From IMG/VR virus record IMGVR_UViG_3300042516_004109, positions 1-59,160 of that record: a DNA stretch of 59,160 bases; one strand, given 5' to 3'. The translations under genes were made by a program, and so were the position numbers. Origin of the DNA: a virus. Lineage: Duplodnaviria > Caudoviricetes. The notes under the pieces were generated by a model that saw nothing but the letters and a program-made list of their open reading frames with translations, was not told the origin of the DNA and did not search any database. Within the stretch, counting starts at the first letter, position 1. Every line of letters begins with the position of its first letter. Below, one piece after another: positions 9,666-47,012 of the stretch.

Positions 9666-9672
9666 TTAAGTT

Positions 9673-11370: not shown

Positions 11371-11377
11371 AATCGCT

Positions 11378-11385: not shown

Positions 11386-11420
11386 ACATATAATTCTGCA
11401 CTCACGGAAACATCAAAATA

Positions 11421-11813
11421 ATGAGTTCGATCGTTCGAAAATTCTCTGATCTAGATCTTAATTTTTCAGCTCATCCTGTAACAAAAGATGTGATAAAAAA
11501 ATTAAATGATAATGCGATTGCAGGCTCAATTCGAAATCTATTGCTAACCTCGCATTATGAGCGTCTATTTAATCCAGAACTTGGATCAAATCTTAAAAAG
11601 ATGCTATTTGAACCAATCGATAATATCACTACCTCTATTATACAAGGAATGATACTTCAAACCATAAAAAATTATGAGCCACGAGTAACAATTCAAGATG
11701 TAATTGCAACACCAGATTATGATAACGATAGATACGACATTAAAATTGTATTTTTTGTAAACAATACTTTAGAGCCGATCACGGTCTCTTTTTTCCTAGA
11801 ACGGGTAAGATAA
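11421..11813 (+). CDS. gp25: Baseplate wedge subunit
   Basis: SDLDLNF, SIRNLLLT...ERLFNPELGS, NYEPRV. Confidence 0.93.
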   Translation: MSSIVRKFSDLDLNFSAHPVTKDVIKKLNDNAIAGSIRNLLLTSHYERLFNPELGSNLKKMLFEPIDNITTSIIQGMILQTIKNYEPRVTIQDVIATPDYDNDRYDIKIVFFVNNTLEPITVSFFLERVR

Positions 11814-11814
11814 C

Positions 11815-13884: not shown

Positions 13885-13885
13885 T

Positions 13886-17392: not shown

Positions 17393-17399
17393 GGAATAA

Positions 17400-22400: not shown

Positions 22401-23625
22401 ATATTATTTGCCTCGCATTGATAAACTTGTTCTTTCAAAAGATAAAGAATTTAGAGTTATTCAAGGTAAGTCTGCTCCGCAGCCTCTACCACCAGAAGAT
22501 TTAGATGATGCTATGACATTATACACATTATATCTTCCACCATATGTGGCTGATATTCGTGAGATCAGAACAAAATATATCGAAAATCGTCGTTTTACGA
22601 TGAAAGACATCTCTTCTATTGAGAAGCGTTTACAAAAAGTTGAATTTTTTGTCTCTCTAAATAATGTTGAAAAACTTGCATTGAGTGATAAGACTCAATA
22701 TGAAGATGGTACTGAAAAAGAAAAATTTGGTATTGTCGGTGAGAATTTCAGAACCTTTAATATTGCAGATTTCAATAATGACGATTTTAGAGTTGCATTA
22801 GAAAATGGGTTCATGATTCCAACCATGAGAACTGTTCCACTTGGATTTAAACCTCTTTCTCTATCAGATACAACCTTAAATAAGAAAACAGTAAGTTTAC
22901 AATTTACTGAAACACCAGCAATCTCACAACCTCTTGTCTCAAACAAGGGAGTTGGTGTGCAACCATTCTTGTTTGGTCAATTTAATGGCAGCGTTGAATT
23001 GAAGCCTGACACAGATTATTGGACAGCAGAAGATTTGAAACCAGAAATTATCTCAGTTCCAGAAAGAATCATTGAACACACAACTGTGATTCGTGATATT
23101 GTTGTTGAACCACCTTCACCACCAACTCTTCCAACTCCAACAAGTAATGCAAATACAGTAATTATTGTAACACCTGGTGGTGATCCACCGCCCCCTTCTG
23201 GAAATGTTGTGGTTACATTACCTGCGCCACCAGCTCCTGTAATTGGTTCCGATCAAGATGATACTGATCGAATTCCAATAGTAATTGACTATGATCCACC
23301 AATCAAATTTGACGACGATCTATGGTGGGGTGGTATTCGTACTGATGGAATCGGCAGACCACCTCGTTTCTATGGAAATTTGTGGCAATTTGGTGGCACA
23401 TTAGGTGGTGATAATTTATGGACACCAAGTTATCCAATTGAAGCACCAATGCAAATTGATCCAAATACAATACAATCTCCAAATCCTGTATCTTCTCAGC
23501 CAATAACGCTAGACAATGGAAACGCGGGTTTTACTGGTGGACTTAATCATATGAACACATTAGATGGTGAAATCAGTGGTGGTGGTTCTGGTACATTCGA
23601 TAATTATAATTACTCAAAGGTATAA
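19411..23625 (+). CDS. Large virion structural protein, VrlC/DUF4815-like N-terminal part
   Basis: NINPY.DDF, FKPGRAVQ.RELTQ.QS.LQNQI, APGADR, LARRTFDESGDY, YYLPRID. Confidence 0.8.
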   Translation: MQFNINPYNDDFEQNALDNNYMRIMFKPGRAVQTRELTQIQSILQNQIKQFGDHVFQDGSPVIGGNLTLDNKTTFIKLLETFENTDIEVEEFNGTVIRNTSGTVQAKVLATHFPTDGIPTLMVRYITGNEFIDGDTITIAGTTTRAQLIASNSTGFGTIVSINEGVFYADGFFVQVGNQTTVVSAYSTSANVKIGLEINEEFIDSDIDATLLDPAQESFNYQAPGADRYQFSLILSTRPIDTVIDESKFFELMRVENGAVTKQVKYPIYAELEKTLARRTFDESGDYTVKPFRASLLDGTDANNYTISIEPGKAYVKGFEFETIGTLKIDAPKPRSASDVKSLVDTDVDLSYGNFVYVTALRGSSNGFINIAALEKIDVHCVDTSKVAVGLGTSANSQLYQNTRIGSVRVKNFIRSTADAFDAVGDSNGVYLLYMSEVSMDPKVVKVTAASSNSNTIRLQDKMSAVDNAYRNVSVTILPVRLDAIANVATANVFAGSYRLNANSAVANVFSGANVSVGSVIKVGKDVREVVSVNTIGDFLTVNTEFSQTIVGTNSSTNPLQVFIQTAYNQNVSSQTRTVQRYDGTTKTIFLDAPFDNNGIADVNSVVQLDFDMAHAESFIAGPSVSNVLVAGANASMNISIQSQKTGGETVAEDKSRNAMIFQLPGNYIKRASLNNADYNYNKIVLNRSNTGTSNIFALSQGAGLESFETIPFADSTRAIQDNLIVIVRDNNGNTSYPNGTMLQLTAANVTIASPATTITIDTFVPDILKVDIILTTKQNDSEDKIRKKNFFSNTNYVGTRTNFTYPTTASGNTTVTIPNHGVVANVDVANGLIFLTDVTFNSVRPGDSISLFVPDVVKIRKVLAGNTTHLPDVNNVRDITDHFYVDYGQRDDVYEHAKLILKTGFDNPNAKLLVHLDLYQHVYISGSNVSFFSVDSYSESKYESGSIPIYKSSTGKVYYLRDCLDFRPTRTIGDVSNSFTVPNFPSVDEVSELSLQYYLPRIDKLVLSKDKEFRVIQGKSAPQPLPPEDLDDAMTLYTLYLPPYVADIREIRTKYIENRRFTMKDISSIEKRLQKVEFFVSLNNVEKLALSDKTQYEDGTEKEKFGIVGENFRTFNIADFNNDDFRVALENGFMIPTMRTVPLGFKPLSLSDTTLNKKTVSLQFTETPAISQPLVSNKGVGVQPFLFGQFNGSVELKPDTDYWTAEDLKPEIISVPERIIEHTTVIRDIVVEPPSPPTLPTPTSNANTVIIVTPGGDPPPPSGNVVVTLPAPPAPVIGSDQDDTDRIPIVIDYDPPIKFDDDLWWGGIRTDGIGRPPRFYGNLWQFGGTLGGDNLWTPSYPIEAPMQIDPNTIQSPNPVSSQPITLDNGNAGFTGGLNHMNTLDGEISGGGSGTFDNYNYSKV

Positions 23626-23631
23626 AATTAC

Positions 23632-26600
23632 ATGTCAATTACAACTAATTACGGTAAATTGGTAGTAGATACAAGTCTTATTCCATACATTCGCTATAAG
23701 GATGTAGAATTTACAGCACATAACTTATTACCATTTACATTGGCTAAATTATTTTTTGATGATGTTGCTGTTAATAATTTTTGCCAAGCTGGTGGACAAC
23801 TGCAACTAGATTCAAAGAAAATTATTACGATAAGTCGCAATAATGCCGTTGGTATCACTGCAACAGATATTGTTTTTCAGGGCACATCAAATACTGTTAA
23901 TACATTTAATGGTTTAATTGAATCATTTAATTCAAATGATTCTACAGTTACAATTCGTCGTTTAAGCGGCGATTTTGATGAAACTGCTCAGCTGTTTATT
24001 GAGAGTGTAAGCACTGGTTCAGTATATGCAAACTGTAATGTTGTTTCTGTGACTAATTTTCAAACATCTGATTCGTTTTATCCAGGCGAAGGTATAGTTG
24101 CTCCACAACGCAGTAATGCATTTGCAACTGTTATTGCTACATCTGGAGAAAATAATCTTTATATTAATCAAAATTATATTAATTTAAATGTTGATGCAGT
24201 CGGTGTTAATGTTCTATCGTCGATGAGTTCTGACTATAAAGATGGTGACATTGTATATCAAACAAGTAGCGGAACTAATCGTTATGACCAAGCAACATTT
24301 AAAGGTATTGTTCGTTTCTTCAATGTAAGCGGCGCAGGTTCTATTGCAATTGAGCCATATGAAGGCGTCGTTGTAGCAAATGCTAATTTTGCTGGATCAA
24401 ATGTTCTTGTGCAGATGTGGAATGCTTCAACTCCATCATCGAAACCCCTTGCAGCAAATGCCTTTAATACTCTTGGTATTGCATCAAACAATTTTATTCG
24501 TAGTGTGACAAACACTTCTGTCAATATTAATGTGAGTTCATTTATACATCGTTCTGGTGTGATTGCAAATACATTAGCACCAAACACATCAACAGTGATG
24601 CTTGTTACAGGTAGTGGCAATAATCCTGCGAATGGTAACTTGATTTACTTCACAACTGGCACTGGTGTTGGCGAACTTCGCCGTGTTGTTTCGATTAGTA
24701 ATGAGCAAGCTGTTTTAAATAGTGCTCTATCATTTACACCTACATCAAATACACATTATTCAATTGGTAATTTTGAAGTTGATCAAAATGGAACATTGTC
24801 TGGTATTTTCCATATTCCTTCGTATCCATCTTTCAAATTTAAAACTGGTAATCGCATCTTTACAATTACAGATACTGCTCGCTATAATGATCCAGATTAT
24901 AAGATGAGAGCATCTGCAGTTTATGCAGCAAGTGGTCTTCTAAAGCAAACACAACGCATTCAAACAACACCAGTATTACAGCCATTACCTGAAACATTTG
25001 CTGATATTCCAGTCGTACCATTAAATCCTTCTGATCGTACATTTAATGGAGCATCAACAAAGTCCCCTGTCACTGGTTCTACGGCATCAACCACACCAAG
25101 AATACCACTCGGTGATGGATTGGCTCAAACTTTCTATACACCGAAGCCAGCTGGCAATCAACAAGATTATGGAATTTTCTGTAGTTCAATTGATCTATTC
25201 TTTAAGAGTAAGCCATCAGTTTCGCAACACTTTCAAAATTCTAAATCAATTTCTCGCGGTTCTTTGCAATTACCAGTCACTGTTAAAATTGCTGAAGTGC
25301 AGAATGGGTATCCAACAAAGAATTATTTGGCTTCTAAAACAATACAAGCAAAAGATGTTAAAGTATCAGAAGTTCCAAGTGTTTCAAATACAGCAACTGT
25401 AACGAAATTCTCTTTTGACGATCCAGTTTACTTAGAACCAAATCGTGAATATGCAATCATTGTAGGTTCAGATTCACCAGACTATGAAGTTTGGATTGCT
25501 GAATTGGGAACAGATGTATTTGGAGTTACTCCACCAAGACGCATCTCTGAACAACCATATGCAGGTTCGTTCTTTAGATCTCAAAACTCGTCAACCTGGT
25601 CTCCATATCAAAATCAAGATCTAATGTTTGTATTAAATAAAGCAGTGTTTGAAACATCAGGCACGGCAACATTTAACCTTGAAGATACACCAACCTCAAA
25701 TACTCTGATCGACCGCGTCATGCTAATGTCATCAGATTTAAGATTCCCAGTTGGTATTGTTGACTATAATCTAAAAGGCAAATATGCTATTGATAGTACA
25801 ACAGAACCTTCTGGTGTGTTTTTAACACCACATGTTGCCCTTGAATATGGAACATTACTTGATCGCTCTGGTAAACAATCCTCGGGATCATTCTTAAATC
25901 GTCGCATTCTTGAGCGCGGAAATGCAAACAGTTTTGTTATGTCTGTACAGATGTCGACAAGTGATCCAAATATTTCCCCAATCGTAAATACAGAGCGTTT
26001 GGCAGTTATAGGTGTCGCTTATGGCATCAATAATGCTGGTTTAGTTAACACTGATATTTCTATAACTAATTCTGGTGTAGGCTATAATGCAGTTTCAACA
26101 ACTGGCAATGTGATTAAAGGTGGATCGAATAATTCGATTAACAACTTTGCTCAGTTATACAGACAAACATTCTATGCTAATAATTATAATGTTGGTTTCT
26201 ATAATATAACAATCACGAATAATCCAAACGACAACGGCAGTGGCGCAACTGGCTTTGCTGTTGCAAATACAGATGGATCAAATACAGTTAATCATATTGT
26301 AATTACGACTGTCGGAAGTGGATATCTAGAAACACCAACAATCTCTATTGAAAATGGCAATGCTGCTTCTGCAATTGAAGCTCGTGCTCTTGTTTCTGGT
26401 GAAACAGGAAAGAACGGTGGTAATATTCTTGCTAAATATATCACTCGCGAAATAGTTCTCGGAGATGACTTTGAGTCAGGTGACCTTCGCGTCTTTATGG
26501 ATGCGATTCTACCAACTGCATGCAACATTGATGTATACTACAAAGTTCTTTCCTCGGATGATCCAGAAAAAATTTCGAGTAAGAGTTATCGTAGAATGGA

Positions 26601-26823
26601 AAAGGTTAAGGAAGTATATTCCAAGAATTCAAAAAACATAATTGCATTAGAATATCGTCCTTCTTTGGAAGAAAATAGAATCAATTACACCGAAAATGGA
26701 ATTTCTTATCCAATTGGTGGAGCATTTAAGAATTTTCAAATTAAGGTCTGCTTAACTTCAAGTGATGCGTCTATCGTTCCAAAAATCAGCAACTTAAGAA
26801 TTATTGCTGTTCCAGAGGGTTAA
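23632..26823 (+). CDS. Large virion structural protein, VrlC/DUF4815-like C-terminal part
   Basis: IPYIR, LAQTF, SIDLFF, F.FDDPVYL, QPYAGSFFRSQNSSTW...Q..DL.F, ends LRIIA. Confidence 0.75.
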   Translation: MSITTNYGKLVVDTSLIPYIRYKDVEFTAHNLLPFTLAKLFFDDVAVNNFCQAGGQLQLDSKKIITISRNNAVGITATDIVFQGTSNTVNTFNGLIESFNSNDSTVTIRRLSGDFDETAQLFIESVSTGSVYANCNVVSVTNFQTSDSFYPGEGIVAPQRSNAFATVIATSGENNLYINQNYINLNVDAVGVNVLSSMSSDYKDGDIVYQTSSGTNRYDQATFKGIVRFFNVSGAGSIAIEPYEGVVVANANFAGSNVLVQMWNASTPSSKPLAANAFNTLGIASNNFIRSVTNTSVNINVSSFIHRSGVIANTLAPNTSTVMLVTGSGNNPANGNLIYFTTGTGVGELRRVVSISNEQAVLNSALSFTPTSNTHYSIGNFEVDQNGTLSGIFHIPSYPSFKFKTGNRIFTITDTARYNDPDYKMRASAVYAASGLLKQTQRIQTTPVLQPLPETFADIPVVPLNPSDRTFNGASTKSPVTGSTASTTPRIPLGDGLAQTFYTPKPAGNQQDYGIFCSSIDLFFKSKPSVSQHFQNSKSISRGSLQLPVTVKIAEVQNGYPTKNYLASKTIQAKDVKVSEVPSVSNTATVTKFSFDDPVYLEPNREYAIIVGSDSPDYEVWIAELGTDVFGVTPPRRISEQPYAGSFFRSQNSSTWSPYQNQDLMFVLNKAVFETSGTATFNLEDTPTSNTLIDRVMLMSSDLRFPVGIVDYNLKGKYAIDSTTEPSGVFLTPHVALEYGTLLDRSGKQSSGSFLNRRILERGNANSFVMSVQMSTSDPNISPIVNTERLAVIGVAYGINNAGLVNTDISITNSGVGYNAVSTTGNVIKGGSNNSINNFAQLYRQTFYANNYNVGFYNITITNNPNDNGSGATGFAVANTDGSNTVNHIVITTVGSGYLETPTISIENGNAASAIEARALVSGETGKNGGNILAKYITREIVLGDDFESGDLRVFMDAILPTACNIDVYYKVLSSDDPEKISSKSYRRMEKVKEVYSKNSKNIIALEYRPSLEENRINYTENGISYPIGGAFKNFQIKVCLTSSDASIVPKISNLRIIAVPEG

Positions 26824-26824: not shown

Positions 26825-27052
26825 ATGGAAGATAAAGCGCGAGTGTCAGATAATATGGATTTTGTAAAGGATATGAATAACTTTACATTATTGAACACTA
26901 ATAAGTCAGCTGTAGCAAAGCACCAACAAAAAATAGCTGAATTGAAGAAAGCGAAACTCGTAGAGTTAGAGATAAATAATCTAAAGACAGAAGTTTCTGA
27001 AATTAAAAGTATGTTAGGACAAATTTTAAAAGCCGTCGGCGGTGAGAAATAA
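26825..27052 (+). CDS. Small coiled-coil virion protein (start MEDK)
   Basis: EINNLKTEVSEIKSMLGQIL heptads; usual position after VrlC-like genes. Confidence 0.7.
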   Translation: MEDKARVSDNMDFVKDMNNFTLLNTNKSAVAKHQQKIAELKKAKLVELEINNLKTEVSEIKSMLGQILKAVGGEK

Positions 27053-27055
27053 AAT

Positions 27056-28609
27056 ATGGCAAACACAATTAATGTTGCAATTATTAGCACAGCAAATACC
27101 TTCAATCAGTGGCGTATTAATGACAATCTCATGGCGAACGACATTAATGAGATTGTTCGCGGCAATTTTGTAAAACCTAAAGGAAATGTTACGATTAATG
27201 AAGGCTTTTTAAGACTTGCAAATACTACTGGTGGTGTTGTTCTCGATGTTGCTGATGATACAAATATCGATGGAACTTTAACTGTATTTAATGTTGAGTT
27301 AGATAATTCAACAAATCATCTATATGTCGACGCTGGTGATATTCATTATCGCCGTATGGGTGCAACTGATCTATATCAGATTAATACAAACACAGTTATC
27401 TATGCAACAAATGTAAGCATCTCAAATGCAACTGTTGGCGGAACATTTAATGTTTCTTCAAATACGCTGATCACTGCCTCGAATGTAACGATCTCAAATA
27501 CTCAGGTTGGCGGAACATTTAATGTGGCATCAAATACCACGATTTCTTCTCAGAAAGTAAGAGTTTCGAACACAACAGCAGATGCAAGATTTAATGTTTC
27601 CCCAAACACTTACTTCTTCGGTAATCATGTCAATATAGCAAACACTCATAGTGCTGCAACCTTCGAAGTTACACCAAATACCTTTATCTTTGCAAGCGCG
27701 AATGTTTCTGCTAATGTCAATGTTGGCGCAAGACTAGAAGTTACTGGTAACGCAAATCTATACTCTAATCTTGCAGTAGCCTGGAATACATTTACTGGGA
27801 ACGCCACTGTAACTCAAAATACTGTTACAGGTAATCTTGCTGTTACCCAAAATACGTCAACGGGAAATCTTGCTGTAACTCAAAATACGACATCAGGAAA
27901 TCTCGTTGTATCAAATAGAACTCAAACAAATAATTTAACAGTAGTAAGTCTTGCAAATATCTCAAATGCTAATTTGATCAATGCAACAATCACTACATTG
28001 ACTGTAATTGATCCGATTCAAGCACCAGCAACAACTGCTGATGACAAGTATATTCTTCGTTTCGGTGCAACAACAGATGGTAACGGAACATTTAGAGTAC
28101 AACGCTCTGCAGTTTCTGGGAATGCTGAATTATTCTGGAATGATATAACTGATTCTTGGAATTTCTTAGCAAATGGATTGCCGACGACTTTAAATACTGG
28201 AAATCTATCTGCTGCAAACTTAACTGTAACAGGTGCTATCAATACAACTGGAAACATCACAGGCACGATGAAGTCTGTGAAGGATTTCTTGGATACAAGC
28301 ACTGTTTCAGGAACTGTGTCTGCAAACCTTGCTAATTCAAACTGGTTCAAATACACTTTATCAGGTAATACAACATTCAATTTTATAAATGCTCCAATTT
28401 CTGGAACTTCAATGACATTCTCGTTGATTGTAATTCAAGGATCTGGTGGTGGAAAAACTGTTACTTTTAGTAATACAGTTTACTGGGCTGGTGGTCAAAT
28501 TCCTCCTGCTACAACAAGTGCTACTGGAAATACTGATTTGTGGACATTTACAACATATGATGGTGGCACATCATATATTGGCACTCTTGCTGTTAAAGAC
28601 GCTCGATAG
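27056..28609 (+). CDS. Tail fibre-like protein
   Basis: N-terminal ANTFNQWR..N anchor motif, Asn/Thr-rich beta repeats (GNLAVTQNT), C-terminal YWAGG.IPP...TYDGG domain. Confidence 0.75.
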   Translation: MANTINVAIISTANTFNQWRINDNLMANDINEIVRGNFVKPKGNVTINEGFLRLANTTGGVVLDVADDTNIDGTLTVFNVELDNSTNHLYVDAGDIHYRRMGATDLYQINTNTVIYATNVSISNATVGGTFNVSSNTLITASNVTISNTQVGGTFNVASNTTISSQKVRVSNTTADARFNVSPNTYFFGNHVNIANTHSAATFEVTPNTFIFASANVSANVNVGARLEVTGNANLYSNLAVAWNTFTGNATVTQNTVTGNLAVTQNTSTGNLAVTQNTTSGNLVVSNRTQTNNLTVVSLANISNANLINATITTLTVIDPIQAPATTADDKYILRFGATTDGNGTFRVQRSAVSGNAELFWNDITDSWNFLANGLPTTLNTGNLSAANLTVTGAINTTGNITGTMKSVKDFLDTSTVSGTVSANLANSNWFKYTLSGNTTFNFINAPISGTSMTFSLIVIQGSGGGKTVTFSNTVYWAGGQIPPATTSATGNTDLWTFTTYDGGTSYIGTLAVKDAR

Positions 28610-28617
28610 TATTATTC

Positions 28618-30360
28618 ATGGCACGCAGACCAGATACATTAGAGAAATCGTGGATTATTGGTCCATCGCGTGGCACACAAACATTTAATGCGCCATCGAA
28701 TCTTTTCATTGATTATGGTCGTCATGTCGCAACAGTCTCTGGTCGTGGTGGCTCTGGAAATGCTCCAGATGCAGTATATACATCAAATTATACCACAAAC
28801 TACAATATTGCTTATCCAATTTCAAATCAACCGATAGCAAATCGCCCAGAAACCGCATGGACAACAAACTACAATGTTGTTTATCCAATTGCAAATCAGC
28901 CGCTTGCAAATCAACCAGCAACTGCATTTACCACGAACTATACCACAAATTATAACATTGCGTATCCAATCGCAAACCAACCAGCGACTGCATACACAAT
29001 CAATTATAACACCAATTATAATATCGTATATCCAGTTGCAAATACACCAGAAACTGGTCGACCTGAAGTTGCGTGGGTAACAAACTATAATACTAATTAT
29101 AACACTGTGTATCCGATTGCGAATCAACCAGAAGCATCAAGACCTGTGACTGCATACTCTACGAATTATAACACTGTGTATCCAGTCGCGAATCAACCAG
29201 AAGCATCAAGACCTGTGACTGCATACTCTACGAATTATAATATTGCGTATCCAATCGATGAACAACCTGTTTTTGAAGTATTAACTGGATATAATACAAA
29301 CTATAATGTGATTTATCCAGTTGCAAATCAACCTGGAACTGGAACTTATAATCCAGCAACTTCGTTTAATTGGAATGCGTATATTGAATATGAGGTTGAA
29401 AAAAGAATAAGTGCACCAGCTGAGCCATTAGAATATTCAGTATTCGTAAGTAATGTGGAAAATAATTCTGGTTCAAATAACACTTGTCCAGTACCAGTTT
29501 ACACGGTTAATGGATTAATAAACAATGCGGCAAATGGACAACAGCAATATTACGCGGAATATACTTGCACACCTGTAGGAAATAATGAAAATTACAATAC
29601 CAATTATAATGTCGCATACCCAGTTGCTAACCAACCTGCAACATACAATCTTGCTTACAATACCAATTATAATGTTGCATATCCCGTAGCAAACCAACCT
29701 GCAACTGCATATTCTATTCTTTATAATACCAATTATAATGTCGCATACCCAGTTGCCAACCAACCAGCAACTGCGTATTCTATTCTTTATAATACCAATT
29801 ATAATGTCGCGTATCCAGTAGCAAATACACCAATTGCAAACCAACCAGCGACTGTATACACAATTAATTATGCAACGAATTATAACATTGCATATCCAAT
29901 CGCAAATCAGCCAGAAGCAGCGAGACCTATAACTGCATACTCAACGAATTATAATGTCGCATATCCAGTTGCCAATCAACCGATCGCAAACCAACCTGCC
30001 ACTGCATACACAATCAATTATAACACCAACTACAATGTAATCTATCCAATCGCAAATCAACCAATAACTGCATGGACGACAAATTATAGTACCAATTATA
30101 ACATTGTCTATCCAATCGCGAATCAGCCATTGGCGAATCAGCCTATCACAAGTTATATTCCTGGAAATGTTGGATCTGCGACTAATGTTCTCGGTGTAAA
30201 TTTCCCAGGTGGACCAATCGATCTTTCTGGGTTTAGTGGTCCTTCTGGAATAGCTCCTTATATCGCTGAAACTGTAGTTCAATATTGGCAGTATCCAGAT
30301 AACTCGAATTATCCCGTAGCAGTTCCACCTGGCGGACAAATTGTTGTCAAAATCGAGTAA
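28618..30360 (+). CDS. Repeat-stalk adhesin-like protein 1 (Tyr-tetrad/Pro-pentad repeats, unique central tip)
   Basis: Non-repetitive N (TFNAP..VSGRGG.GN) and C (FPGG...YPVAVPPGGQIVVKIE) ends flank YNTNYNVAY/PVANQ repeats; paralog of next gene. Confidence 0.7.
   Translation: MARRPDTLEKSWIIGPSRGTQTFNAPSNLFIDYGRHVATVSGRGGSGNAPDAVYTSNYTTNYNIAYPISNQPIANRPETAWTTNYNVVYPIANQPLANQPATAFTTNYTTNYNIAYPIANQPATAYTINYNTNYNIVYPVANTPETGRPEVAWVTNYNTNYNTVYPIANQPEASRPVTAYSTNYNTVYPVANQPEASRPVTAYSTNYNIAYPIDEQPVFEVLTGYNTNYNVIYPVANQPGTGTYNPATSFNWNAYIEYEVEKRISAPAEPLEYSVFVSNVENNSGSNNTCPVPVYTVNGLINNAANGQQQYYAEYTCTPVGNNENYNTNYNVAYPVANQPATYNLAYNTNYNVAYPVANQPATAYSILYNTNYNVAYPVANQPATAYSILYNTNYNVAYPVANTPIANQPATVYTINYATNYNIAYPIANQPEAARPITAYSTNYNVAYPVANQPIANQPATAYTINYNTNYNVIYPIANQPITAWTTNYSTNYNIVYPIANQPLANQPITSYIPGNVGSATNVLGVNFPGGPIDLSGFSGPSGIAPYIAETVVQYWQYPDNSNYPVAVPPGGQIVVKIE
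28780..30156 (+). repeat. Coding repeat array in two arms (28780-29349, about 29590-30156)
   Basis: Recurrent aataccaattataatgtcgc.tatccagt.gc.aa.caacc. Confidence 0.95.
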
Positions 30361-30371
30361 TTTAATATTCG

Positions 30372-30378
30372 CTAAATA
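30372..30378 (+). promoter_or_regulatory. Late promoter
   Basis: CTAAATA upstream of 30404. Confidence 0.6.
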
Positions 30379-30403
30379 CTATCATACAGTGTAGTGAGCG
30401 AAA

Positions 30404-32422
30404 ATGACAAAGGCTACAAACTTAAGAAAAAGCTGGATCGGTGGAGCTTCGAGAGTAACAACGACTTTTAATGCTCCAGGAAGTTTAACACTTCCATATG
30501 GGCAGTTTAAGGGGACTGTCTCTGGTCGTGCTGGAACAGGTAACGACCCAGTTGCAGCGACATATAGCATCACTTATGCTACCAATTATAATATTGCCTA
30601 TCCGATCGCAAATCAGCCGATCGCAAACCAACCAGCGACTGCATATACAATCAATTATAACACCAATTATAATGTCGCATATCCAATCGCTAACCAGCCG
30701 ATCGCAAACCAACCAGCGACTGCGTTTACTACAAATTATAACACCAATTATAACATTGCGTACCCAATCGCAAATCAACCAGAAGCATCAAGACCCGTAA
30801 CTGCATACTCTACGAATTATAACGTTGCTTATCCGATAGCAAATAGACCAGAAGCTGCAAGACCAGCGACGGCATACTCTACGAATTATAACACGAACTA
30901 TAATGTTGCGTATCCAGTTGCTAACCAACCAGCAACTGCGTATTCTATTCTTTATAATACCAATTATAATGTTGCGTATCCAGTTGCTAACCAACCAGCA
31001 ACTGCGTATTCTATTCTTTATAATACCAATTATAATGTTGCGTATCCAGTTGCCAATCAACCAGAAGCATCAAGACCTGTAACTGCGTATTCTATTCTTT
31101 ATAATACCAATTATAATGTTGCTTATCCGATCGCGGCTCAACCAGAATCATCTAGACCTATAACTGCTTATACTACAAATTATAACACTGCGTATCCAGT
31201 GGCTAATCAGCCAGAAGCATCAAGACCAGCAACTGCATATACTACAAATTATAGTACCAATTATAATGCTCCACTTGATCCAAGCTGGAGCGCATCCATG
31301 GACTTTAGCAATGTTGGATATTTGCAAATTGGATTTGAAGAAGGCATGTATAATAATTCAAATGGATATGAATTATTCCCATATACTGGCACTGGCACAT
31401 CTTTTGATACTGGAACTCAAATTATCAGCACACTTACCACATATGTTATTACTGGCACGCATGACAATTTGGGTCCTGGCACACTAACTATTAATTATAC
31501 TAATTTTCCAGGAAGTCCAGGAAACATTGATAATCAGCCAGTTGCAAACCAACCAGCGACTGCGTATTCTATTCTTTATAATACCAATTATAATGTTGCA
31601 TATCCAGTCGGGAATCAGCCAGCAACTGCGTATTCTATTCTTTACAATACAAACTATAACGTTGCGTATCCAGTAGCCAATCAACCAGAGGCATCTCGTC
31701 CAGCAACTGCATATTCTATCACATATTCAACCAATTATAATGTCGCATATCCAGTCGCGAATCAACCAGAAGCATCAAGACCTGTGACTGCATATAGTAC
31801 AAATTACAACGTTGCTTATCCAGTTGCAAATCAACCAGAAGCATCAAGACCTGTAACTGCATATACTACAAATTATAATACTGTGTATCCAGTTGCAAAT
31901 CAACCGATTGCAAATCAACCAGCGACTGCATACACAATCAATTATAACACCAATTATAACATCGCGTATCCAATTGCAAATCAGCCAGCAACTGCGTATT
32001 CTATTCTTTATAATACCAATTATAATGTCGCGTATCCAGTTGCAAATCGACCAATTGCAAATCAACCAGCGACTGCATACACAATCAATTATAATACCAA
32101 TTATAATACTGTGTATCCAATTGCAAATCGACCAATTGCAAACCAACCAGCGACTGCGTTTACTACAAATTATAATACCAATTATAACACTGTCTACCCA
32201 ATCGCAAATCAGCCAGAAACTGGTCGACCAATAACATCATATACTCCAGGTAATCCTGGCGCATCTACAACTGTTCTTGGTGTATTTTTCCCAGGAGGAG
32301 CAGTTTCTACTCTTGCTCCGACTGTAAGTCCAACTTTGGTCGACTATGAACGATTCCCTGATAATGCAAACTATCCCGTGGCAGTGCCTCCAGGTGGTCA
32401 GATCGTAATTAAGATTGAATAA
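30404..32422 (+). CDS. Repeat-stalk adhesin-like protein 2
   Basis: Same N/C caps and repeat grammar as 28618-30360, unrelated central tip. Confidence 0.7.
   Translation: MTKATNLRKSWIGGASRVTTTFNAPGSLTLPYGQFKGTVSGRAGTGNDPVAATYSITYATNYNIAYPIANQPIANQPATAYTINYNTNYNVAYPIANQPIANQPATAFTTNYNTNYNIAYPIANQPEASRPVTAYSTNYNVAYPIANRPEAARPATAYSTNYNTNYNVAYPVANQPATAYSILYNTNYNVAYPVANQPATAYSILYNTNYNVAYPVANQPEASRPVTAYSILYNTNYNVAYPIAAQPESSRPITAYTTNYNTAYPVANQPEASRPATAYTTNYSTNYNAPLDPSWSASMDFSNVGYLQIGFEEGMYNNSNGYELFPYTGTGTSFDTGTQIISTLTTYVITGTHDNLGPGTLTINYTNFPGSPGNIDNQPVANQPATAYSILYNTNYNVAYPVGNQPATAYSILYNTNYNVAYPVANQPEASRPATAYSITYSTNYNVAYPVANQPEASRPVTAYSTNYNVAYPVANQPEASRPVTAYTTNYNTVYPVANQPIANQPATAYTINYNTNYNIAYPIANQPATAYSILYNTNYNVAYPVANRPIANQPATAYTINYNTNYNTVYPIANRPIANQPATAFTTNYNTNYNTVYPIANQPETGRPITSYTPGNPGASTTVLGVFFPGGAVSTLAPTVSPTLVDYERFPDNANYPVAVPPGGQIVIKIE
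30566..32242 (+). repeat. Coding repeat array in two arms (30566-31270, 31538-32242)
   Basis: As above; includes near-exact 66-bp tandem copies around 30900-31060. Confidence 0.95.
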
Positions 32423-32427
32423 TATAC

Positions 32428-32456
32428 TTGACATAGTCCAATAAATAAGTTATAAT
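32428..32456 (+). promoter_or_regulatory. Perfect sigma70 promoter with nested late promoter
   Basis: TTGACA (32428-33), 17 bp, TATAAT (32451-56); AATAAATA at 32440-47 within the spacer. Confidence 0.85.
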
Positions 32457-32485
32457 TTGATTTCGTTATTCTTGAGATTTATTTT

Positions 32486-33088
32486 ATGCCATATCCAGTG
32501 CAACGTTATGCTCGTGTTTTAAATCGTTTTTGTGTCGCTACAAAAGCATTTACCAAAGAAGAAGTAGAAAAAATTCTTGCTCTTGAAGACTTGCAAAAGT
32601 TTCAAAAAGGCGCAATTGGTGGTGGCACAGCAAAGGGTCAAGTCAATAAGAAAAATCGCGATAGTGATGTCATGTGGGTGATGCATGAACAAAATTCTGA
32701 CTGGCTCTATCAAAAATTCTCAAGTTTAGTTTCTGCAGTCAATTATGATCATTTCATGTATGATGTTGAAGGTTTTGAGAACTTTCAATATACAGTTTAT
32801 CGATCTAAAGACAAGCAGCACTATGATTGGCATATCGATGCTGGAAATACATCAAGCCCATTTGAACGCAAGATTAGTGCATCATTAATTCTTACCGATC
32901 CAAGTAAGTATGAAGGCGGTGAATTCGAATGTGTGATGAATGGTCGTGTTGATGAGCCTTTTGTTGCAAAAGCAGAAATTGGTGATGTGATTTTCTTTGA
33001 TTCTCGCATGCCTCATCGCGTTCGCCCAGTTACTTCTGGTGTTCGTAAATCATTAGTATGTTGGATTATGGGCAAGAATACATGGTAA
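32486..33088 (+). CDS. 2OG-Fe(II) oxygenase (prolyl-hydroxylase/PKHD-like)
   Basis: YDWHID, RKISASL.L, YEGGEF, H.V.PVTSG.RKSLVCW. Confidence 0.92.
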   Translation: MPYPVQRYARVLNRFCVATKAFTKEEVEKILALEDLQKFQKGAIGGGTAKGQVNKKNRDSDVMWVMHEQNSDWLYQKFSSLVSAVNYDHFMYDVEGFENFQYTVYRSKDKQHYDWHIDAGNTSSPFERKISASLILTDPSKYEGGEFECVMNGRVDEPFVAKAEIGDVIFFDSRMPHRVRPVTSGVRKSLVCWIMGKNTW

Positions 33089-33816
33089 ATCTAAAAAAAC
33101 TTAGATTTTGGGATAATCCAATAATTGAGTTTTATTGTCACCCAGAACTCTATGGAATTATTCCTGAGCCAAAAGCGGCAGTAAAGAGTCTGCCTGACTG
33201 GTTTAAGAATTTGGAGCCAACATTTGGTGATGGTAGAGATTCATTTGGCAATAAATCCATGTCTGCTAAAAAATGCCTTCCGCTATTAGATGGAATGTCT
33301 TTAGGATTCACTATTCCGTTATGCGGCGATGTGCATGTAAGATCAAACTATAACAATAGTCAATTTGATATAACAAATCCTCCAGGTATCAAAGTTTGTG
33401 AATTTCATGACGCCAATCAAGTTGGTGGAAATAGTGGAATTAAATTAAACCATGGCAATCCTTTGAAATTCCTCAATCCATGGGTTGTTAAAACTGCTCC
33501 AGGGTGGTCTGCATTGTTCATCAATCCAATGAACAATTATGAACACCCATTCACATGTTTGGGCGCAATGGTTGATACTGACAAATACCCAAAAGAAGTA
33601 AACTTTCCTGCTCTATGGCATGAAACAGATTCTGACTATCATATTCCTGCAGGAACACCGTTGGTGACAGTGATTCCAATTAAAAGACATTCCTTTGAAA
33701 AGAAACCTCGCGTTCGATCAATGTCACCAAAAGAATTCAAAGAGATTTCTGTAATACAAAAACGACAAAATATGCGCACACATCATTATACCTATGATTT
33801 GAGAGAGAAGAAATAA
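33082..33816 (+). CDS. Conserved phage hypothetical (DUF6065/dUTPase-like beta-clip?)
   Basis: KKCLP.LD....GF.IP, KF.NPW.VKT.PGWS, VDTD, IPAGTPL..VIP. Confidence 0.55.
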   Translation: MVNLKKLRFWDNPIIEFYCHPELYGIIPEPKAAVKSLPDWFKNLEPTFGDGRDSFGNKSMSAKKCLPLLDGMSLGFTIPLCGDVHVRSNYNNSQFDITNPPGIKVCEFHDANQVGGNSGIKLNHGNPLKFLNPWVVKTAPGWSALFINPMNNYEHPFTCLGAMVDTDKYPKEVNFPALWHETDSDYHIPAGTPLVTVIPIKRHSFEKKPRVRSMSPKEFKEISVIQKRQNMRTHHYTYDLREKK

Positions 33817-33818
33817 TT

Positions 33819-34553
33819 ATGTTTAATTTTCTTAAAAAAGATAAACCCGATCTTGAATTTATAGATTCATCTGAGGTAGTGTATCCTCACTATCCACCAA
33901 TTCTTGCAAAAGATTTAAAGCCTTTAAAAGAGCATCAAGAAAAAAAGTTTGAGAGTTATATCTTTCCACAATGTCCTGGAATGCATGATTATTCTAGAAT
34001 GGGTTATATAATTCCAGCATGGAGTAATTTTCATATCAAAGCAAACAAGGCTGGTTGCGTTGCATTTTTGGGTAGCGATGGTGAAAATAGAGATAAACGA
34101 GGCACTCCATTAGGTCAACCAAAAAATATGGATGTGAAAATTACTGATGGTTTATTTAAACTTAATGGTATCGATCCTTGTATTTGGAATTTTCCAGGTG
34201 CATGGAAAGTTTTTGGCAATGGGAATGTTTCCGCATTAGTCATGCCAGCATTTTTTCATTCAACATTTTTAGATGATCTTTATGTTTATCCAGGAGTAGT
34301 AGATTATAATAAATTTACAACGCTTAATTTTATATGTTCACCGAAACATGAATGCGAAGTTCAGATTAAAGCTGGCGAGCCAATATTGCATGTGATTCCT
34401 TTTATCACCAACAAAGATATTGTTGCAAGTTATGGTCCTGCATCAAAAGAACAAGATGACTACAGTAAAATACTTAAATGGTTTCATGAATTAAATTTCT
34501 ATAGAAAATACTATATGATTCGTAAAAAATACAAGATAATTAAAAAGAGTTAA
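33819..34553 (+). CDS. Paralog of preceding hypothetical protein
   Basis: CPGM.DY...GYIIPAW, PGVVD, IKAGEPI..VIP align by eye with 33082-33816. Confidence 0.55.
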   Translation: MFNFLKKDKPDLEFIDSSEVVYPHYPPILAKDLKPLKEHQEKKFESYIFPQCPGMHDYSRMGYIIPAWSNFHIKANKAGCVAFLGSDGENRDKRGTPLGQPKNMDVKITDGLFKLNGIDPCIWNFPGAWKVFGNGNVSALVMPAFFHSTFLDDLYVYPGVVDYNKFTTLNFICSPKHECEVQIKAGEPILHVIPFITNKDIVASYGPASKEQDDYSKILKWFHELNFYRKYYMIRKKYKIIKKS

Positions 34554-34558
34554 TATCA

Positions 34559-35521
34559 ATGGCAAAAATCTTCGTAAACATTTGTTCATATCGAGATAAA
34601 TTACTCGCACCGACTCTCTATAGTTTGTTGGAAACTGAGTCTGGACGAAACGCTATTACATATGGAGTTTTCGAACAAACAAAACTCGAAGATAGTTTGC
34701 AAACAACACATCCTGATCTTATCAATCATAAACAAATTCGATATAAACGAATTGATCCACAATTTTCTGATGGAGTTGTTTGGGCACGATGTATTAATTC
34801 GATGCAAATTTATGATGAAGATTTCCAGTATCAGATAGATTCTCATATGTTATTTGATAAAGATTGGGATAATCAATTGATACTTGATTATAATGATGCA
34901 TGTAAAGTGGCTGGGAAAAATAAAGTAGTTTTAACTTCTGGCACAAAAAATTACGATCTAGAAAATGAAAGAATCATTAAACACACTTTAACTGATGATA
35001 TTACTGTCAAGTTAGGTTATTTTCAATTCGATAAAGATCTAAGATTGCATGCTCATGGTGCATGGGTTCCAGCAACAGAGCGGGTTACTCCATCAATTCA
35101 TATCTGCGCTGGCAACTTTTTCATGCCTGTAAGTTGGATCAAAGACGTTGGATACAATACAAAGATATTTTTTGAAGGCGAAGAACAGATTTTTGTTATT
35201 AGTTCGATTCTTGCTGGATATAGCATATTCCATCATCGCAAGATTAAAGTATATCATTATCTTCGATCTGGTAGCCATGACACCAAACAAACGATTAATC
35301 CTGTTGCCAGCTCAGAAAAATTAAAGATGAATCACGATCGATCTAAGAAAGAGATCATTGATTACATCTATTCTCTATCCGAGGAACAGCTCGAACACTA
35401 TCGTCGCATAACAGGTGTCGATTATATAAATAGAAAACTAGAGGATCGTGCAATTTCTCGTAAAATCTCTCCCAATCCTGGAATTGTAAATGATTGGGAG
35501 GTGCCGAATAGAGATGGTTAA
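34559..35521 (+). CDS. Skp1-type hydroxyproline N-acetylglucosaminyltransferase-like (GT60)
   Basis: IFVNICSYRD, GVVWAR, QIDSHMLF..DWD, AGNFF, FEGEE, YH.Y: hallmark motifs of the Gnt1/GlcNAc family. Confidence 0.8.
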   Translation: MAKIFVNICSYRDKLLAPTLYSLLETESGRNAITYGVFEQTKLEDSLQTTHPDLINHKQIRYKRIDPQFSDGVVWARCINSMQIYDEDFQYQIDSHMLFDKDWDNQLILDYNDACKVAGKNKVVLTSGTKNYDLENERIIKHTLTDDITVKLGYFQFDKDLRLHAHGAWVPATERVTPSIHICAGNFFMPVSWIKDVGYNTKIFFEGEEQIFVISSILAGYSIFHHRKIKVYHYLRSGSHDTKQTINPVASSEKLKMNHDRSKKEIIDYIYSLSEEQLEHYRRITGVDYINRKLEDRAISRKISPNPGIVNDWEVPNRDG

Positions 35522-36088: not shown

Positions 36089-36424
36089 ATGGCGCAATTT
36101 GTAGAAGTAGATCTAGATCAAGGAACAACCTTTAATCTTGATATTGTAGTTAAGAACGATGATGGCAGCAGAATTAATGTTGCAGGCTACACATTTTCTT
36201 CCTCAATGCGCAAATCATTTTATTCTTCAAGTGTGACAGCAAATTTAACCGTTGCAGTGATTAATGCTGCGAATGGTGATGTTAGATTTTCGCTAAATGC
36301 AGCGTCAACTGCTAACATAAAAGCAGGTCGTTATGTGTTTGATATCAAACAAATTAATACTTCAAATGTAACATCGCGTATGTTTGAGGGGATTATTACA
36401 GTTAATCCACAGGTAACGAAATGA
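36089..36424 (+). CDS. Small Ig-like virion/fibre adaptor protein (BppU-N-like)
   Basis: [20 protein letters not shown]...V.P.VT; ATGA-coupled to collagen gene. Confidence 0.65.
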
Positions 36425-46610: not shown

Positions 46611-47012
46611 ATGAGTGAAGTTGATAAAAATCTCTCTAATATTCTAAACACTGACTATATTCCTGTAGTAAGTGATAAAGAAACTAAATCGATGATTGTT
46701 CATCAAGATGATTCACAAAATCCTGATGCAGATTACTCGCGTTCTAATTATTACAACCTTATCGAAAGGGGTAATGAGGCTTTGGATGGTATTCTTGAGG
46801 TAGCGAGAGAATCACAACATCCACGAGCATACGAAGTAGCAGCCAACATGATTAAGAATCTCTCTGATGTCACAGAGAAACTTATGATTCTTCAACGGCA
46901 ACAACAAGAATTGCAACCAAAAGAGCAAGCACCAACAAATATTGCAATTGATAAAGCAGTGTTCATTGGATCTACAGCAGATCTATTGAAGCAAATAAAA
47001 AATGAATCTTAG
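46611..47012 (+). CDS. gp16: Terminase small subunit
   Basis: DY.R.N, HPRAYEV, FIGSTADL. Confidence 0.93.
   Translation: MSEVDKNLSNILNTDYIPVVSDKETKSMIVHQDDSQNPDADYSRSNYYNLIERGNEALDGILEVARESQHPRAYEVAANMIKNLSDVTEKLMILQRQQQELQPKEQAPTNIAIDKAVFIGSTADLLKQIKNES

What the first reader, a model, noticed from the sequence alone, without database searches (positions are those of the whole stretch)
28618..30360. Paralog obeys the same pairing rule with a different code string
Seen: N-arm Y3 P3 Y2 P3 Y3 P2 Y3 P3 Y3 P3 Y2 P3 Y2 versus reversed C-arm P3 Y3 P2 Y3 P3 Y2 P3 Y3 P3 Y3 P2 Y3 P2, so 13 of 13 regular blocks match. The three innermost pairs are degenerate (PIDEQPVFEVLTGY facing NLAYNTNYNVAY) but of compatible length. 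The 2/3 pattern differs from the other gene, so complementarity was maintained independently after duplication. Inference: selection for compensatory indels, and stalk length (16 vs 19 blocks) acting as a tunable ruler.
Basis: partly seen in the sequence, partly recalled or inferred. Interest (0 to 1): 0.85.

Follow-up and report, generated by a model that had tools for sequence, protein, structure and literature searches.

The report
Fold-back phage fibre with mirrored repeats
Two neighbouring genes of an uncultured T4-like aquatic phage encode fibre-like proteins whose first and second halves carry mirror-image repeat patterns, which indicates that the chain folds back on itself into a long stalk of adjustable length with a fast-changing tip.

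Summary
A mechanical parser (4-residue units ending in Tyr/Phe/Trp; 5-residue units starting with Pro) gives for gene A (28618-30360) N-arm 3323323333232 and the same numbers for the reversed C-arm with Tyr and Pro blocks swapped (13/13). Gene B (30404-32422) gives 19/19. Shuffles reach this in 836 and 39 of 200,000 trials.

In relatives from metagenomes and IMG/VR, 298 of 320 compared blocks match. There are 11 different mirrored strings of 8 or more blocks, up to 28/28.

Residues also covary, and only between facing blocks (Ile opposite Glu, Thr opposite Ile; MI 0.85 bit against 0.16 or less for every other pairing). The coupled columns run antiparallel. There is no DNA palindrome.

Best reading: a new, unannotated family of tail or baseplate fibres. 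It has a fold-back stalk, a base made of both termini and a hypervariable central tip (22% identity between orthologues whose arms are 95-97% identical). The architecture resembles the T4 gp37 needle, but there is no detectable homology.

AlphaFold2 did not model the stalk, so oligomeric state and backbone conformation remain inferred. A 2OG-Fe(II) oxygenase follows the fibre genes in 48 of 52 cases.

The parts
28618..28779 (+). Gene A, N-terminal domain (residues 1-54), conserved across the family
   Evidence: Invariant K10, W12, Y33, G34, G42, G47 in alignment A1. AF2 pLDDT about 61-91.
28780..29250 (+). Gene A, N-arm: 13 regular blocks Y3 P3 Y2 P3 Y3 P2 Y3 P3 Y3 P3 Y2 P3 Y2 (residues 55-211)
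   Evidence: Mechanical parse.
29251..29349 (+). Gene A, three degenerate inner blocks of the N-arm (residues 212-244)
   Evidence: Read. Their lengths fit the facing C-arm blocks.
29350..29583 (+). Gene A, central domain (about residues 245-322), the proposed distal tip; it holds a Cys pair conserved in the family consensus
   Evidence: AF2 gives confident beta strands at 249-320. It is the least conserved region, 36-48% identity to relatives. The CPxP...YxC consensus is.
29584..30156 (+). Gene A, C-arm (residues 323-513): two degenerate inner blocks, then Y3 P2 Y3 P2 Y3 P3 Y3 P3 Y2 P3 Y3 P2 Y3 P3
   Evidence: Mechanical parse. Mirror match of 13/13.
30157..30360 (+). Gene A, C-terminal domain (residues 514-580) and stop codon
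   Evidence: Invariant G526, V527, P530, G531, G532. AF2 pLDDT 74-92.
30404..30565 (+). Gene B, N-terminal domain (residues 1-54)
30566..31264 (+). Gene B, N-arm: 19 blocks, string 3333332332323333232 (residues 55-287)
31265..31537 (+). Gene B, central tip domain (residues 288-378)
   Evidence: 22% identity to the L006 orthologue, whose arms are 95-97% identical.
31538..32242 (+). Gene B, C-arm: 19 blocks that mirror the N-arm (residues 379-613)
   Evidence: 19/19.
32243..32422 (+). Gene B, C-terminal domain (residues 614-672) and stop codon
32486..33088 (+). 2OG-Fe(II) oxygenase gene directly downstream; candidate modifying enzyme (inference only)
   Evidence: PF13640, E 1.4e-14. A homologue follows 48 of 52 runs of family genes in related loci.
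27056..28609 (+). Upstream tail-fibre-like gene (517 aa), the conserved left neighbour
   Evidence: phrog_7760 tail fiber protein, E 1.6e-10. Synteny.

Best explanation
A and B are tandem paralogues of a new, unannotated family of virion fibre proteins of an uncultured T4-like (Kyanoviridae-like) aquatic myovirus.

Each chain has five parts: a small N-terminal domain, a long repetitive N-arm, a central domain, a C-arm and a small C-terminal domain. The two arms lie side by side, antiparallel and in register, so the chain folds back on itself. Every block of n Tyr units (4 residues each, xxxY) on one arm faces a block of n Pro units (5 residues each, Pxxxx) on the other arm, and the two kinds of block alternate along each arm. 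The termini therefore sit together at the base, which is presumably the attachment site. The central domain sits at the far end as the exchangeable tip, presumably the receptor-binding part.

Shown: the mirrored unit counts, the facing-block residue covariation and its antiparallel direction, the conserved termini, the hypervariable centre, and the position of the genes in the baseplate and tail-fibre module.

Inferred:
- The pairing is within one chain.
- The fibre is an oligomer, probably a trimer as in other phage fibres.
- The Tyr blocks are beta strands with a Tyr/Thr/Val face and an Asn face.
- The extra residue of each Pro unit is taken up as a bulge or a longer outer path.
- The stalks of A and B are about 55-70 nm long if one unit rises about 1.35 nm.
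For: (1) Mirror rule. A gives 13/13 and B gives 19/19. Shuffles reach this in 836 and 39 of 200,000 trials, and no other register, parallel pairing or neighbour rule fits.

(2) Relatives, parsed by the same strict parser. Of 219 unique sequences examined, 54 had both arms parsed, giving 41 distinct string pairs. 298 of 320 blocks match. By my reading of the table, 19 of the 22 mismatches are at the innermost compared block, where the parser's run ends. 11 of 15 cases with 8 or more blocks are perfect, all with different strings (28/28, 22/22, 20/20, 19/19, 16/16, 15/15, 13/13 and others). One protein uses 4-unit blocks (34444) and still obeys the rule. Pairing the N-arm of one protein with the C-arm of another gives 5 of 326 perfect matches and 52% of blocks equal.

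(3) Residue covariation in 240 distinct facing Y3/P3 pairs.
- Y column 2 against P column 7: MI 0.85 bit (I-E 157, T-I 60).
- Y column 3 against P column 9: MI 1.04 bit (L-S 39, T-G 37).
- For same-arm neighbours or the other arm shifted by 2 or 4 blocks, the Y2-P7 value is 0.02-0.16.
- The coupled columns run anti-diagonally (Y1-P13, Y2-P10/P7, Y3-P9, Y5-P8). The start of a Tyr block couples to the end of its Pro block in both 2-unit and 3-unit blocks.

(4) There are no inverted DNA repeats in 28618-32422, so the mirror is a property of the protein, not the DNA.

(5) The N- and C-terminal domains always occur together, flanking inserts of very different size and kind across 127 representative hits and 46 loci. 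Both are confidently modelled by AF2 (pLDDT up to 91-95) while the stalk is not.

(6) ESMFold2 complex of A 1-104 with A 465-580: weak support. The score is 0.42 (runs 0.56, 0.22, 0.42) and the best of 3 controls is 0.00. The mark was reached by 58 of 80 solved complexes and 2 of 110 mismatched pairs. At 0.60 or under, however, it was reached by only 7 of those 80 and by both mismatches that passed. The runs agree in at least 62% of contacts and the partner's pLDDT is at least 57. My own alignment was used, so these counts hold only roughly.

(7) Tip cassette. winB against its L006 orthologue is 100 / 95 / 22 / 97 / 100 % identical in N-domain / N-arm / tip / C-arm / C-domain.

(8) Context. 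Homologues of baseplate hub and wedge proteins lie upstream, a tail-fibre-like gene is directly upstream and a collagen-like fibre gene is downstream. The order is conserved in related loci.
Against: - AF2 monomer models of A and of the short relative P0050 leave the stalk below pLDDT 50, so no model of the pairing exists.
- The complex test gives only weak support and cannot tell intra-chain from inter-chain pairing.
- Four metagenomic relatives break the rule or have unequal arms: P0001, P0007, P0009 and P0040. P0001 looks like a chimera of an A-type gene and a B-type gene. P0040 lacks exactly one 23-residue Y2P3 unit between direct repeats. Assembly collapse is plausible but not shown.
- There is no evidence that the proteins are in the virion, no evidence of oligomeric state, and no cultured relative. 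The family was not found in 50,697 GenBank phage records by tblastn, nor in 3 of 3 cultured relatives by profile search.
- The 2/3 strings are no more slip-resistant than shuffled ones: the sum of best off-register agreement is 8.85 against 8.84.
Confidence: 0.75

Rival explanations
1. Head-to-tail antiparallel oligomer without fold-back. The chains stay extended, the N-arm of one chain pairs with the C-arm of another, and the central domains lie in the middle of a two-fold symmetric rod.
For: Mirrored counts, facing-block covariation and the weak N-part/C-part complex score are all equally expected under this reading. None of my tests separates intra-chain from inter-chain pairing.
Against: The hypervariable, cassette-swapped centre fits a distal receptor-binding tip better than the middle of a rod. 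The N- and C-domains flank inserts of every size, including large non-repetitive ones, as in a simple domain insertion. Solved phage fibres attach by one end, and in the T4 gp37 needle each chain turns back with both termini at the knob (passage read in PMC9603124).
Confidence: 0.1
2. The mirror pattern is a by-product of history only (nested duplications or recombination around the centre), with no physical contact between the arms.
For: Inner N-arm, tip and inner C-arm are contiguous in the gene, so central cassettes move together. L011 and L012 share their inner 14 blocks but differ in the outer blocks (strings, compared by eye). The tip is swapped in L006.
Against: Co-inheritance would couple a block to all its neighbours. 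Yet residue covariation is confined to the exactly facing block: MI 0.85 against 0.02-0.16 for blocks 1-4 positions away. Recombination keeps the arms matched only if both crossovers fall at mirrored points, which itself requires selection for pairing.
Confidence: 0.05
3. A single beta-solenoid (beta-helix) in which each Y+P super-unit of 18-27 residues forms one coil, with Asn ladders and Tyr stacks. The N and C halves stack end to end rather than side by side.
For: Super-unit lengths of 22, 23 and 27 residues (one search gives spacings of 66, 69 and 81 nt), together with the Asn- and Tyr-rich pattern, resemble beta-helix coils (resemblance from recall).
Against: A solenoid gives no reason for the counts to be mirrored with Tyr and Pro swapped between halves. 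It also gives no reason for residue coupling between blocks hundreds of residues apart while same-arm neighbours are weakly coupled.
Confidence: 0.04
4. Chance or parsing artefact.
For: The 2/3 alphabet is small and 3 is frequent, so partial agreement (about 50%) is expected.
Against: The parser is mechanical and was applied unchanged to all sequences. Shuffle frequencies are 4e-3 (A) and 2e-4 (B). 11 independent strings are perfectly mirrored, against 5 of 326 for cross-protein controls.
Confidence: 0.01

Closest known systems
T4 long tail fibre tip, gp37 'needle' (domains D10/D11)
   Same: Fold-back fibre. Each chain of the trimer runs from the knob to the tip and turns back, with the N and C termini both at the knob (passage read in PMC9603124). 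D10 is built from residues 811-881 and 1010-1026, which flank the stem and tip (passage read in PMC6957217). The receptor-binding tip is encoded in the middle of the segment.
   Different: No sequence relation: the PDB profile search found 0 hits and Pfam found none. Fold searches gave no match at E<=0.001. A and B have one His each and no HxH iron sites (read). The gp37 needle is about 20 nm long, whereas these stalks are built from up to 28 block pairs of two alternating repeat types with mirrored counts. The oligomeric state is unknown here.
SMC/Rad50-type antiparallel coiled-coil arms (analogy, from recall)
   Same: The head is made of the N- and C-terminal parts, the central domain lies at the far end, and two long arms from one chain pair antiparallel with matched lengths.
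   Different: Those arms are alpha-helical coiled coils of chromosome and repair ATPases. Here Pro occurs every 5 residues, and AF2's DSSP shows strands and only two 3-residue helical stretches, both in the C-terminal domain. There is no homology.
Other repetitive phage fibre folds: collagen-like triple helix, triple beta-helix/beta-spiral, Gly-rich PPII sandwich of gp38 adhesins (from recall)
   Same: Short tandem repeats build an elongated virion appendage whose length scales with copy number. A collagen-like fibre gene lies in the same module at 36421-40836.
   Different: Those repeats are homotypic and pair between parallel chains. None is known to me to carry a mirrored N/C pattern or heterotypic pairing of 4-residue against 5-residue units. 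A and B have no Gly-X-Y repeats and no Collagen Pfam hit.

Membership tests
T4 gp37 needle-type fold-back fibre | Detectable sequence or fold homology to the gp37 D10/D11 domains | tested here: not met
   PDB profile search with A1: 0 hits at E<=1. Foldseek against PDB with two models: no match at E<=0.001. Pfam, PHROGs and NCBIfam: 0 families.
T4 gp37 needle-type fold-back fibre | The chain runs out and back, with both termini at the base and the tip encoded in the middle | tested here: met
   Met by inference from mirrored counts and facing-block covariation, plus a weak complex score for N-part with C-part of 0.42 against 0.00. An inter-chain antiparallel arrangement is not excluded.
T4 gp37 needle-type fold-back fibre | His-x-His motifs that coordinate iron along the stem | tested here: not met
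   A and B each contain a single His and no HxH (translations).
T4 gp37 needle-type fold-back fibre | Homotrimer | not tested
Collagen-like phage fibre | Gly-X-Y triplet repeats (Pfam Collagen) | tested here: not met
   No Collagen hit for A or B, while the neighbour at 36421-40836 scores 2.2e-115.
Beta-solenoid / beta-helix tailspike | Contacts between consecutive coils, so that pattern and covariation are explained within one run of repeats | tested here: inconclusive
   Same-arm Y-P neighbour coupling is weak (MI 0.05-0.16 for the Y2-P7 and Y2-P10 columns) and cross-arm facing coupling is strong (0.85). Y-Y and P-P coupling between successive super-units was not tested.
Virion structural protein of a T4-like myovirus | Encoded in the baseplate and tail-fibre module | tested here: met
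   Homologues of gp48, gp53, gp5, gp6, gp7 and gp8 lie at 6561-19400 and a tail-fibre-like gene at 27056-28609. gp23 and TerL are in the window. The gp names are my own reading; the calls give only PHROG descriptions (baseplate tail tube cap, wedge subunit, hub subunit and tail lysozyme). The gene order is conserved in related loci.
Virion structural protein of a T4-like myovirus | Detected in purified particles | not testable with these tools
   There is no cultured relative.

The most novel reading that the evidence does not exclude
This is a previously undescribed fibrous protein architecture. Two chemically different repeats pair one-to-one across a fold-back: a Tyr/Asn tetrad strand and a Pro pentad strand. 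The arms carry an aperiodic, mirrored 2/3 'barcode' and a residue-level pairing code (Ile opposite Glu...Arg, Thr opposite Ile...Gln, Leu opposite Ser, Thr opposite Gly). The fold-back makes the stalk a nested, freely extendable module from a few nm to about 100 nm, and the tip a swappable cassette. The always-adjacent 2OG-Fe(II) oxygenase, DUF6065 proteins and glycosyltransferase may hydroxylate and glycosylate the fibre.
Probability: 0.4. Interest if true: 0.88.

Novelty: new variant of a known kind. Interest (0 to 1): 0.78.

Why it matters
- Sequence alone gives a near contact-level map of a long fibre that structure prediction cannot model. It uses indel covariation, which is rarely seen so cleanly.
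- It defines a new family of probable host-recognition fibres in an abundant but uncultured group of aquatic T4-like phages.
- It offers a natural series of stalks from 1 to 28 block pairs for studying how fibre length and register are set.
- It suggests a modular scaffold (base, adjustable stalk, swappable tip) that could be tested for fibre engineering in laboratory phages.
- The tight link to a 2OG-Fe(II) oxygenase and a glycosyltransferase points to fibre modification, which could be tested by mass spectrometry.

Tried and rejected
- AF2 monomer of A with 40-row alignment A1: mean pLDDT 49.7, stalk below 50.
- AF2 of the short relative P0050 with 29-row alignment A2: mean pLDDT 57.5, stalk below 50. 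Neither gives a usable stalk model.
- Foldseek of both models against PDB, and of the P0050 model against BFVD: no match at E<=0.001. The best BFVD rows are uncharacterised phage proteins at E 1.8e-3 and 2.7e-3. An S-PM2 virion structural protein appears at E 0.097, which is only a lead.
- ESM Atlas: no usable hit.
- PDB sequence search: none.
- Pfam, PHROGs and NCBIfam for A and B: none.
- tblastn of A and of its C-terminal 81 residues, and megablast of 27000-33000, against 50,697 GenBank phage records: no match. The tool warns that records near the window's genome may be left out.
- Profile A1 against the full records of Pelagibacter phage HTVC008M, S-RIM50 and S-CAM9: 0 of 3. The window itself matched as a positive control.
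- DNA palindrome or RNA hairpin as the source of the mirror: 0 inverted repeats.
- 'Barcode optimised against slippage': not supported. The observed sum of best off-register agreement is 8.85 against a shuffled mean of 8.84, and 1032 of 2000 shuffles were at or below the observed value.
- Literature. Searching the four repeat motifs found only unrelated papers: 13 hold one motif as a chance substring and 0 hold the other three. The terms 'compensatory, indels, repeat, antiparallel, fiber, phage' found 0 papers. Other searches turned up nothing describing this family. I saw listings only for those, apart from passages read in PMC6957217, PMC9603124 and bioRxiv 10.1101/2024.10.28.620165.
- Supplements were not consulted.
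Full report
WHAT IS THERE

The window is a 59,160-base linear IMG/VR virus record, estimated 34% complete. It carries the following genes:
- a T4-type major capsid gene (55770-57113, PF07068) and large terminase (47002-48633);
- a run of homologues of baseplate hub and wedge proteins at 6561-19400;
- two very large structural genes (19411-26823);
- a tail-fibre-like gene (27056-28609, phrog_7760);
- the two genes of the finding, A (28618-30360, 580 aa) and B (30404-32422, 672 aa).

The capsid protein is at most about 57% identical to any GenBank phage. The best matches are Pelagibacter phage HTVC008M and cyanomyoviruses of the Kyanoviridae. The phage therefore belongs to an uncultured lineage.

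A and B match nothing in Pfam, PHROGs or NCBIfam, nothing in the PDB by sequence and no GenBank phage record.

THE OBSERVATION

In both proteins the spacing of aromatic and proline residues is strictly regular. A mechanical parser defines a Y unit as 3 residues plus Tyr/Phe/Trp following an aromatic residue. It defines a P unit as a Pro followed by another Pro 5 residues on, or by an aromatic residue 4 residues on.
- A: the N-arm at residues 55-211 reads 3323323333232, starting with a Y block. The reversed C-arm reads the same numbers with Y and P exchanged (13/13).
- The three inner pairs of A are degenerate but fit in length.
- B: residues 55-287 against 379-613 reads 3333332332323333232 (19/19).

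Shuffling the C-arm counts, Y blocks and P blocks separately, reaches this in 836 of 200,000 trials for A and 39 of 200,000 for B. Shifted registers, parallel alignment and adjacent blocks within an arm do not match. There is no inverted DNA repeat in 28618-32422, so the mirror exists only at the protein level.

RELATIVES

A word-index search gave 43 proteins. A profile of 40 sequences (38 of those 43 plus A and B) found 127 representatives in 1.84 billion proteins, 22 of them at E<=1e-30. A scan of IMG/VR gave 46 loci, and I extracted the family ORFs from them with the same profile.

The unchanged parser was applied to all 219 unique sequences. It found both arms in 54 of them, giving 41 distinct string pairs.
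- 298 of 320 compared blocks agree.
- By my reading of the table, 19 of the 22 disagreements are at the innermost compared block, where the strict parser stops next to a degenerate unit.
- 11 of the 15 cases with 8 or more blocks are perfect, each with a different string: 28/28 (854 aa), 22/22, 20/20, 19/19, 16/16, 15/15, 13/13 and shorter ones.
- One protein uses blocks of four units (34444) and still obeys the rule.
- Pairing the N-arm of one protein with the C-arm of another gives 5 perfect cases in 326 and 52% equal blocks.

Exceptions exist. P0007 and P0040 have interior mismatches, and P0001, P0007 and P0009 have arms of unequal parsed length. P0001 aligns as an A-type N-terminus, a B-type tip and an A-type C-terminus. 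P0040 lacks exactly one 23-residue Y2P3 unit between direct repeats relative to P0038. Both patterns are what repeat collapse in short-read assembly would give, but I could not test that.

RESIDUE-LEVEL COVARIATION (NEW)

From the matched arms I collected 486 facing block pairs, 348 of them distinct. In the 240 distinct Y3/P3 pairs:
- Column 2 of the Y block and column 7 of the P block share 0.85 bit (Ile with Glu 157 times, Thr with Ile 60 times, 23 others).
- Y column 3 and P column 9 share 1.04 bit (Leu-Ser 39, Thr-Gly 37, Asn with Asn, Ala or Thr).
- Y column 1 and P column 13 share 0.60 bit.

The same columns were compared between a Y block and P blocks 1 or 3 positions away in its own arm, and between a Y block and P blocks 2 or 4 positions off in the other arm. 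These give 0.02-0.16 bit for Y2-P7 and at most 0.48 bit for Y3-P9. These controls use the same proteins, so relatedness does not explain the signal.

The coupled columns run anti-diagonally (Y1-P13, Y2-P10/P7, Y3-P9, Y5-P8). In 2-unit blocks the equivalent columns are coupled (Y1-P8, Y2-P5/P2). The start of a Y block thus meets the end of its P block, which is antiparallel at the residue level. A hydrophobic Ile appears to be supplied either by the Y strand (with Glu...Arg opposite) or by the P strand (with Thr opposite). That is what a shared contact would produce.

ARCHITECTURE AND FUNCTION

The N-terminal domain of about 54 residues and the C-terminal domain of about 60-67 residues are the conserved parts (invariant columns). 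They always occur together, flanking inserts from about 60 to about 700 residues, with or without Y/P arms. Sub-families use other repeat 'dialects': 9-residue P1+Y1 repeats or 8-residue PxxY+NxxY repeats, in equal numbers in both arms.

AF2 models the two terminal domains and the central domain confidently but not the stalk. A two-chain prediction of A 1-104 with A 465-580 gave weak support: score 0.42 against 0.00 for the best of 3 controls. At 0.60 or under, such passes were reached in calibration by only 7 of 80 solved complexes and by both of the 2 mismatched pairs (of 110) that passed.

The central domain is the fastest-changing part. winB and its L006 orthologue are 100 / 95 / 22 / 97 / 100 % identical in N-domain / N-arm / tip / C-arm / C-domain, which is a clean cassette swap typical of receptor-binding tips.

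Taken together, the chain most likely folds back. The base is made of both termini, the two arms are zipped in register, and the tip is at the far end. This is the layout of the T4 gp37 needle, where each chain runs from knob to tip and turns back (PMC9603124, passage read) and D10 is made of residues on both sides of the stem (PMC6957217, passage read).

There is no homology to gp37 and no HxH iron motif. The stalk is also of a different kind: two alternating repeat types that pair heterotypically.

Several points are inference, not result:
- that the Y blocks are beta strands (one face Tyr/Thr/Val, the other Asn);
- that the fifth residue of each P unit is a bulge or a longer outer path;
- that the fibre is a trimer;
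- the estimated lengths, about 58 nm for A, 70 nm for B and 100 nm for the 854-aa relative, assuming 1.35 nm per unit.

HOW THE ARMS STAY MATCHED

Tandem duplication cannot create the mirror, because the forward strings of the two arms differ. Two routes remain: separate compensating changes in each arm, or exchange of central cassettes. Inner N-arm, tip and inner C-arm are contiguous in the gene, so a double crossover at mirrored points keeps both products matched.

Three observations favour frequent cassette exchange. L011 and L012 share their inner 14 blocks but differ in the outer blocks, and outer prefixes are conserved within sub-groups (strings, compared by eye). The tip swap points the same way. 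Either route needs selection for pairing.

The idea that the 2/3 string is tuned to prevent slippage was tested and not supported. Any aperiodic string gives some register discrimination.

RIVALS

- An extended head-to-tail oligomer (N-arm of one chain pairing with the C-arm of another) fits all the covariation data. It is disfavoured only by the tip biology and by analogy (about 0.1).
- Pure co-inheritance without contact is contradicted by the block-specific coupling.
- A beta-solenoid does not explain a mirror.
- Chance is excluded.

CONTEXT NOTICED

In related loci a 2OG-Fe(II) oxygenase homologue follows within 200 nt of 48 of 52 runs of family genes. One further run is cut by the locus end. 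The oxygenase is usually followed by two DUF6065-like genes, a glycosyltransferase and a collagen-like fibre gene. In some loci each family gene has its own oxygenase (L025, L034-L037, L040, L042). This suggests that the fibres, or the collagen-like neighbour, are hydroxylated and glycosylated. That was not tested.

VERDICT

The structural inference of antiparallel, in-register arms is strongly supported by two independent kinds of covariation. The fold-back topology, trimer state and receptor-binding role are well-motivated inferences.

It is a new family and a new variant of the fold-back phage fibre.

Noticed in passing
window 32486-35521; loci L001-L045: A conserved gene set lies directly downstream of the fibre genes: a 2OG-Fe(II) oxygenase (PF13640), two DUF6065-like genes and a glycosyltransferase. 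An oxygenase homologue follows 48 of 52 runs of family genes. In L025, L034-L037, L040 and L042 each family gene has its own oxygenase. This may be a fibre-modification module.
   Followed up: partly
window 36421-40836: A 1471-aa collagen-like fibre gene (Collagen Pfam 2.2e-115, 15 stretches). Its GC content is 46-48% against about 35-38% around it. It is conserved next to the module in related loci.
   Followed up: no
window 31265-31537 versus L006:248-2230: The tip domain of B is replaced outright in an otherwise 95-100% identical orthologue: 22% identity in the tip. This is cassette exchange of the presumed receptor-binding part.
   Followed up: partly
P0001 (456 aa), P0040 (357 aa): Two relatives break the mirror rule. 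P0001 is an A/B/A chimera with 5 against 15 blocks. P0040 lacks one 23-residue unit between direct repeats. They could be assembly artefacts or real recombinants; this is undecided.
   Followed up: partly
window 28822-29127, 29515-29844, 29941-30339, 30485-30778, 30788-31060, 31844-32146 (all - strand); 30498-30800 and 31893-32234 (+ strand, other frame): Open frames of 90-132 aa lie inside A and B, on the opposite strand or in another frame. Their repetitive Ile/Cys/Trp/Arg-rich translations look like by-products of the repeat codons, not genes.
   Followed up: no
window 28001-32000: Strongly negative GC skew (-0.13 and -0.19) is confined to A and B, presumably reflecting the repeat codon composition.
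   Followed up: no
window 27056-28609 and its homologues in the loci: The upstream tail-fibre-like gene has its own tandem repeats, seen in the translation. Its length varies from about 1.0 to 2.9 kb among related loci.
   Followed up: no
P0026, P0039 and relatives; L009:734-2257: One sub-family builds the middle of the stalk from 8-residue (PxxY+NxxY) or 9-residue (Pxxxx ending in Tyr, plus NxxY) repeats, in similar numbers in both arms. A Pro unit of 4 residues can therefore also face a Tyr unit.
   Followed up: partly
window 29350-29583 (tip of A); alignments A1 and A2: The tip domains share a CPxP...YxC consensus with two conserved Cys, possibly a disulfide.
   Followed up: no
window 1-4000: The first 2 kb have 44.6% GC, above the window's usual 32-39%. 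The ORFs here (237-1133 +, 1203-3878 -) were not annotated.
   Followed up: no
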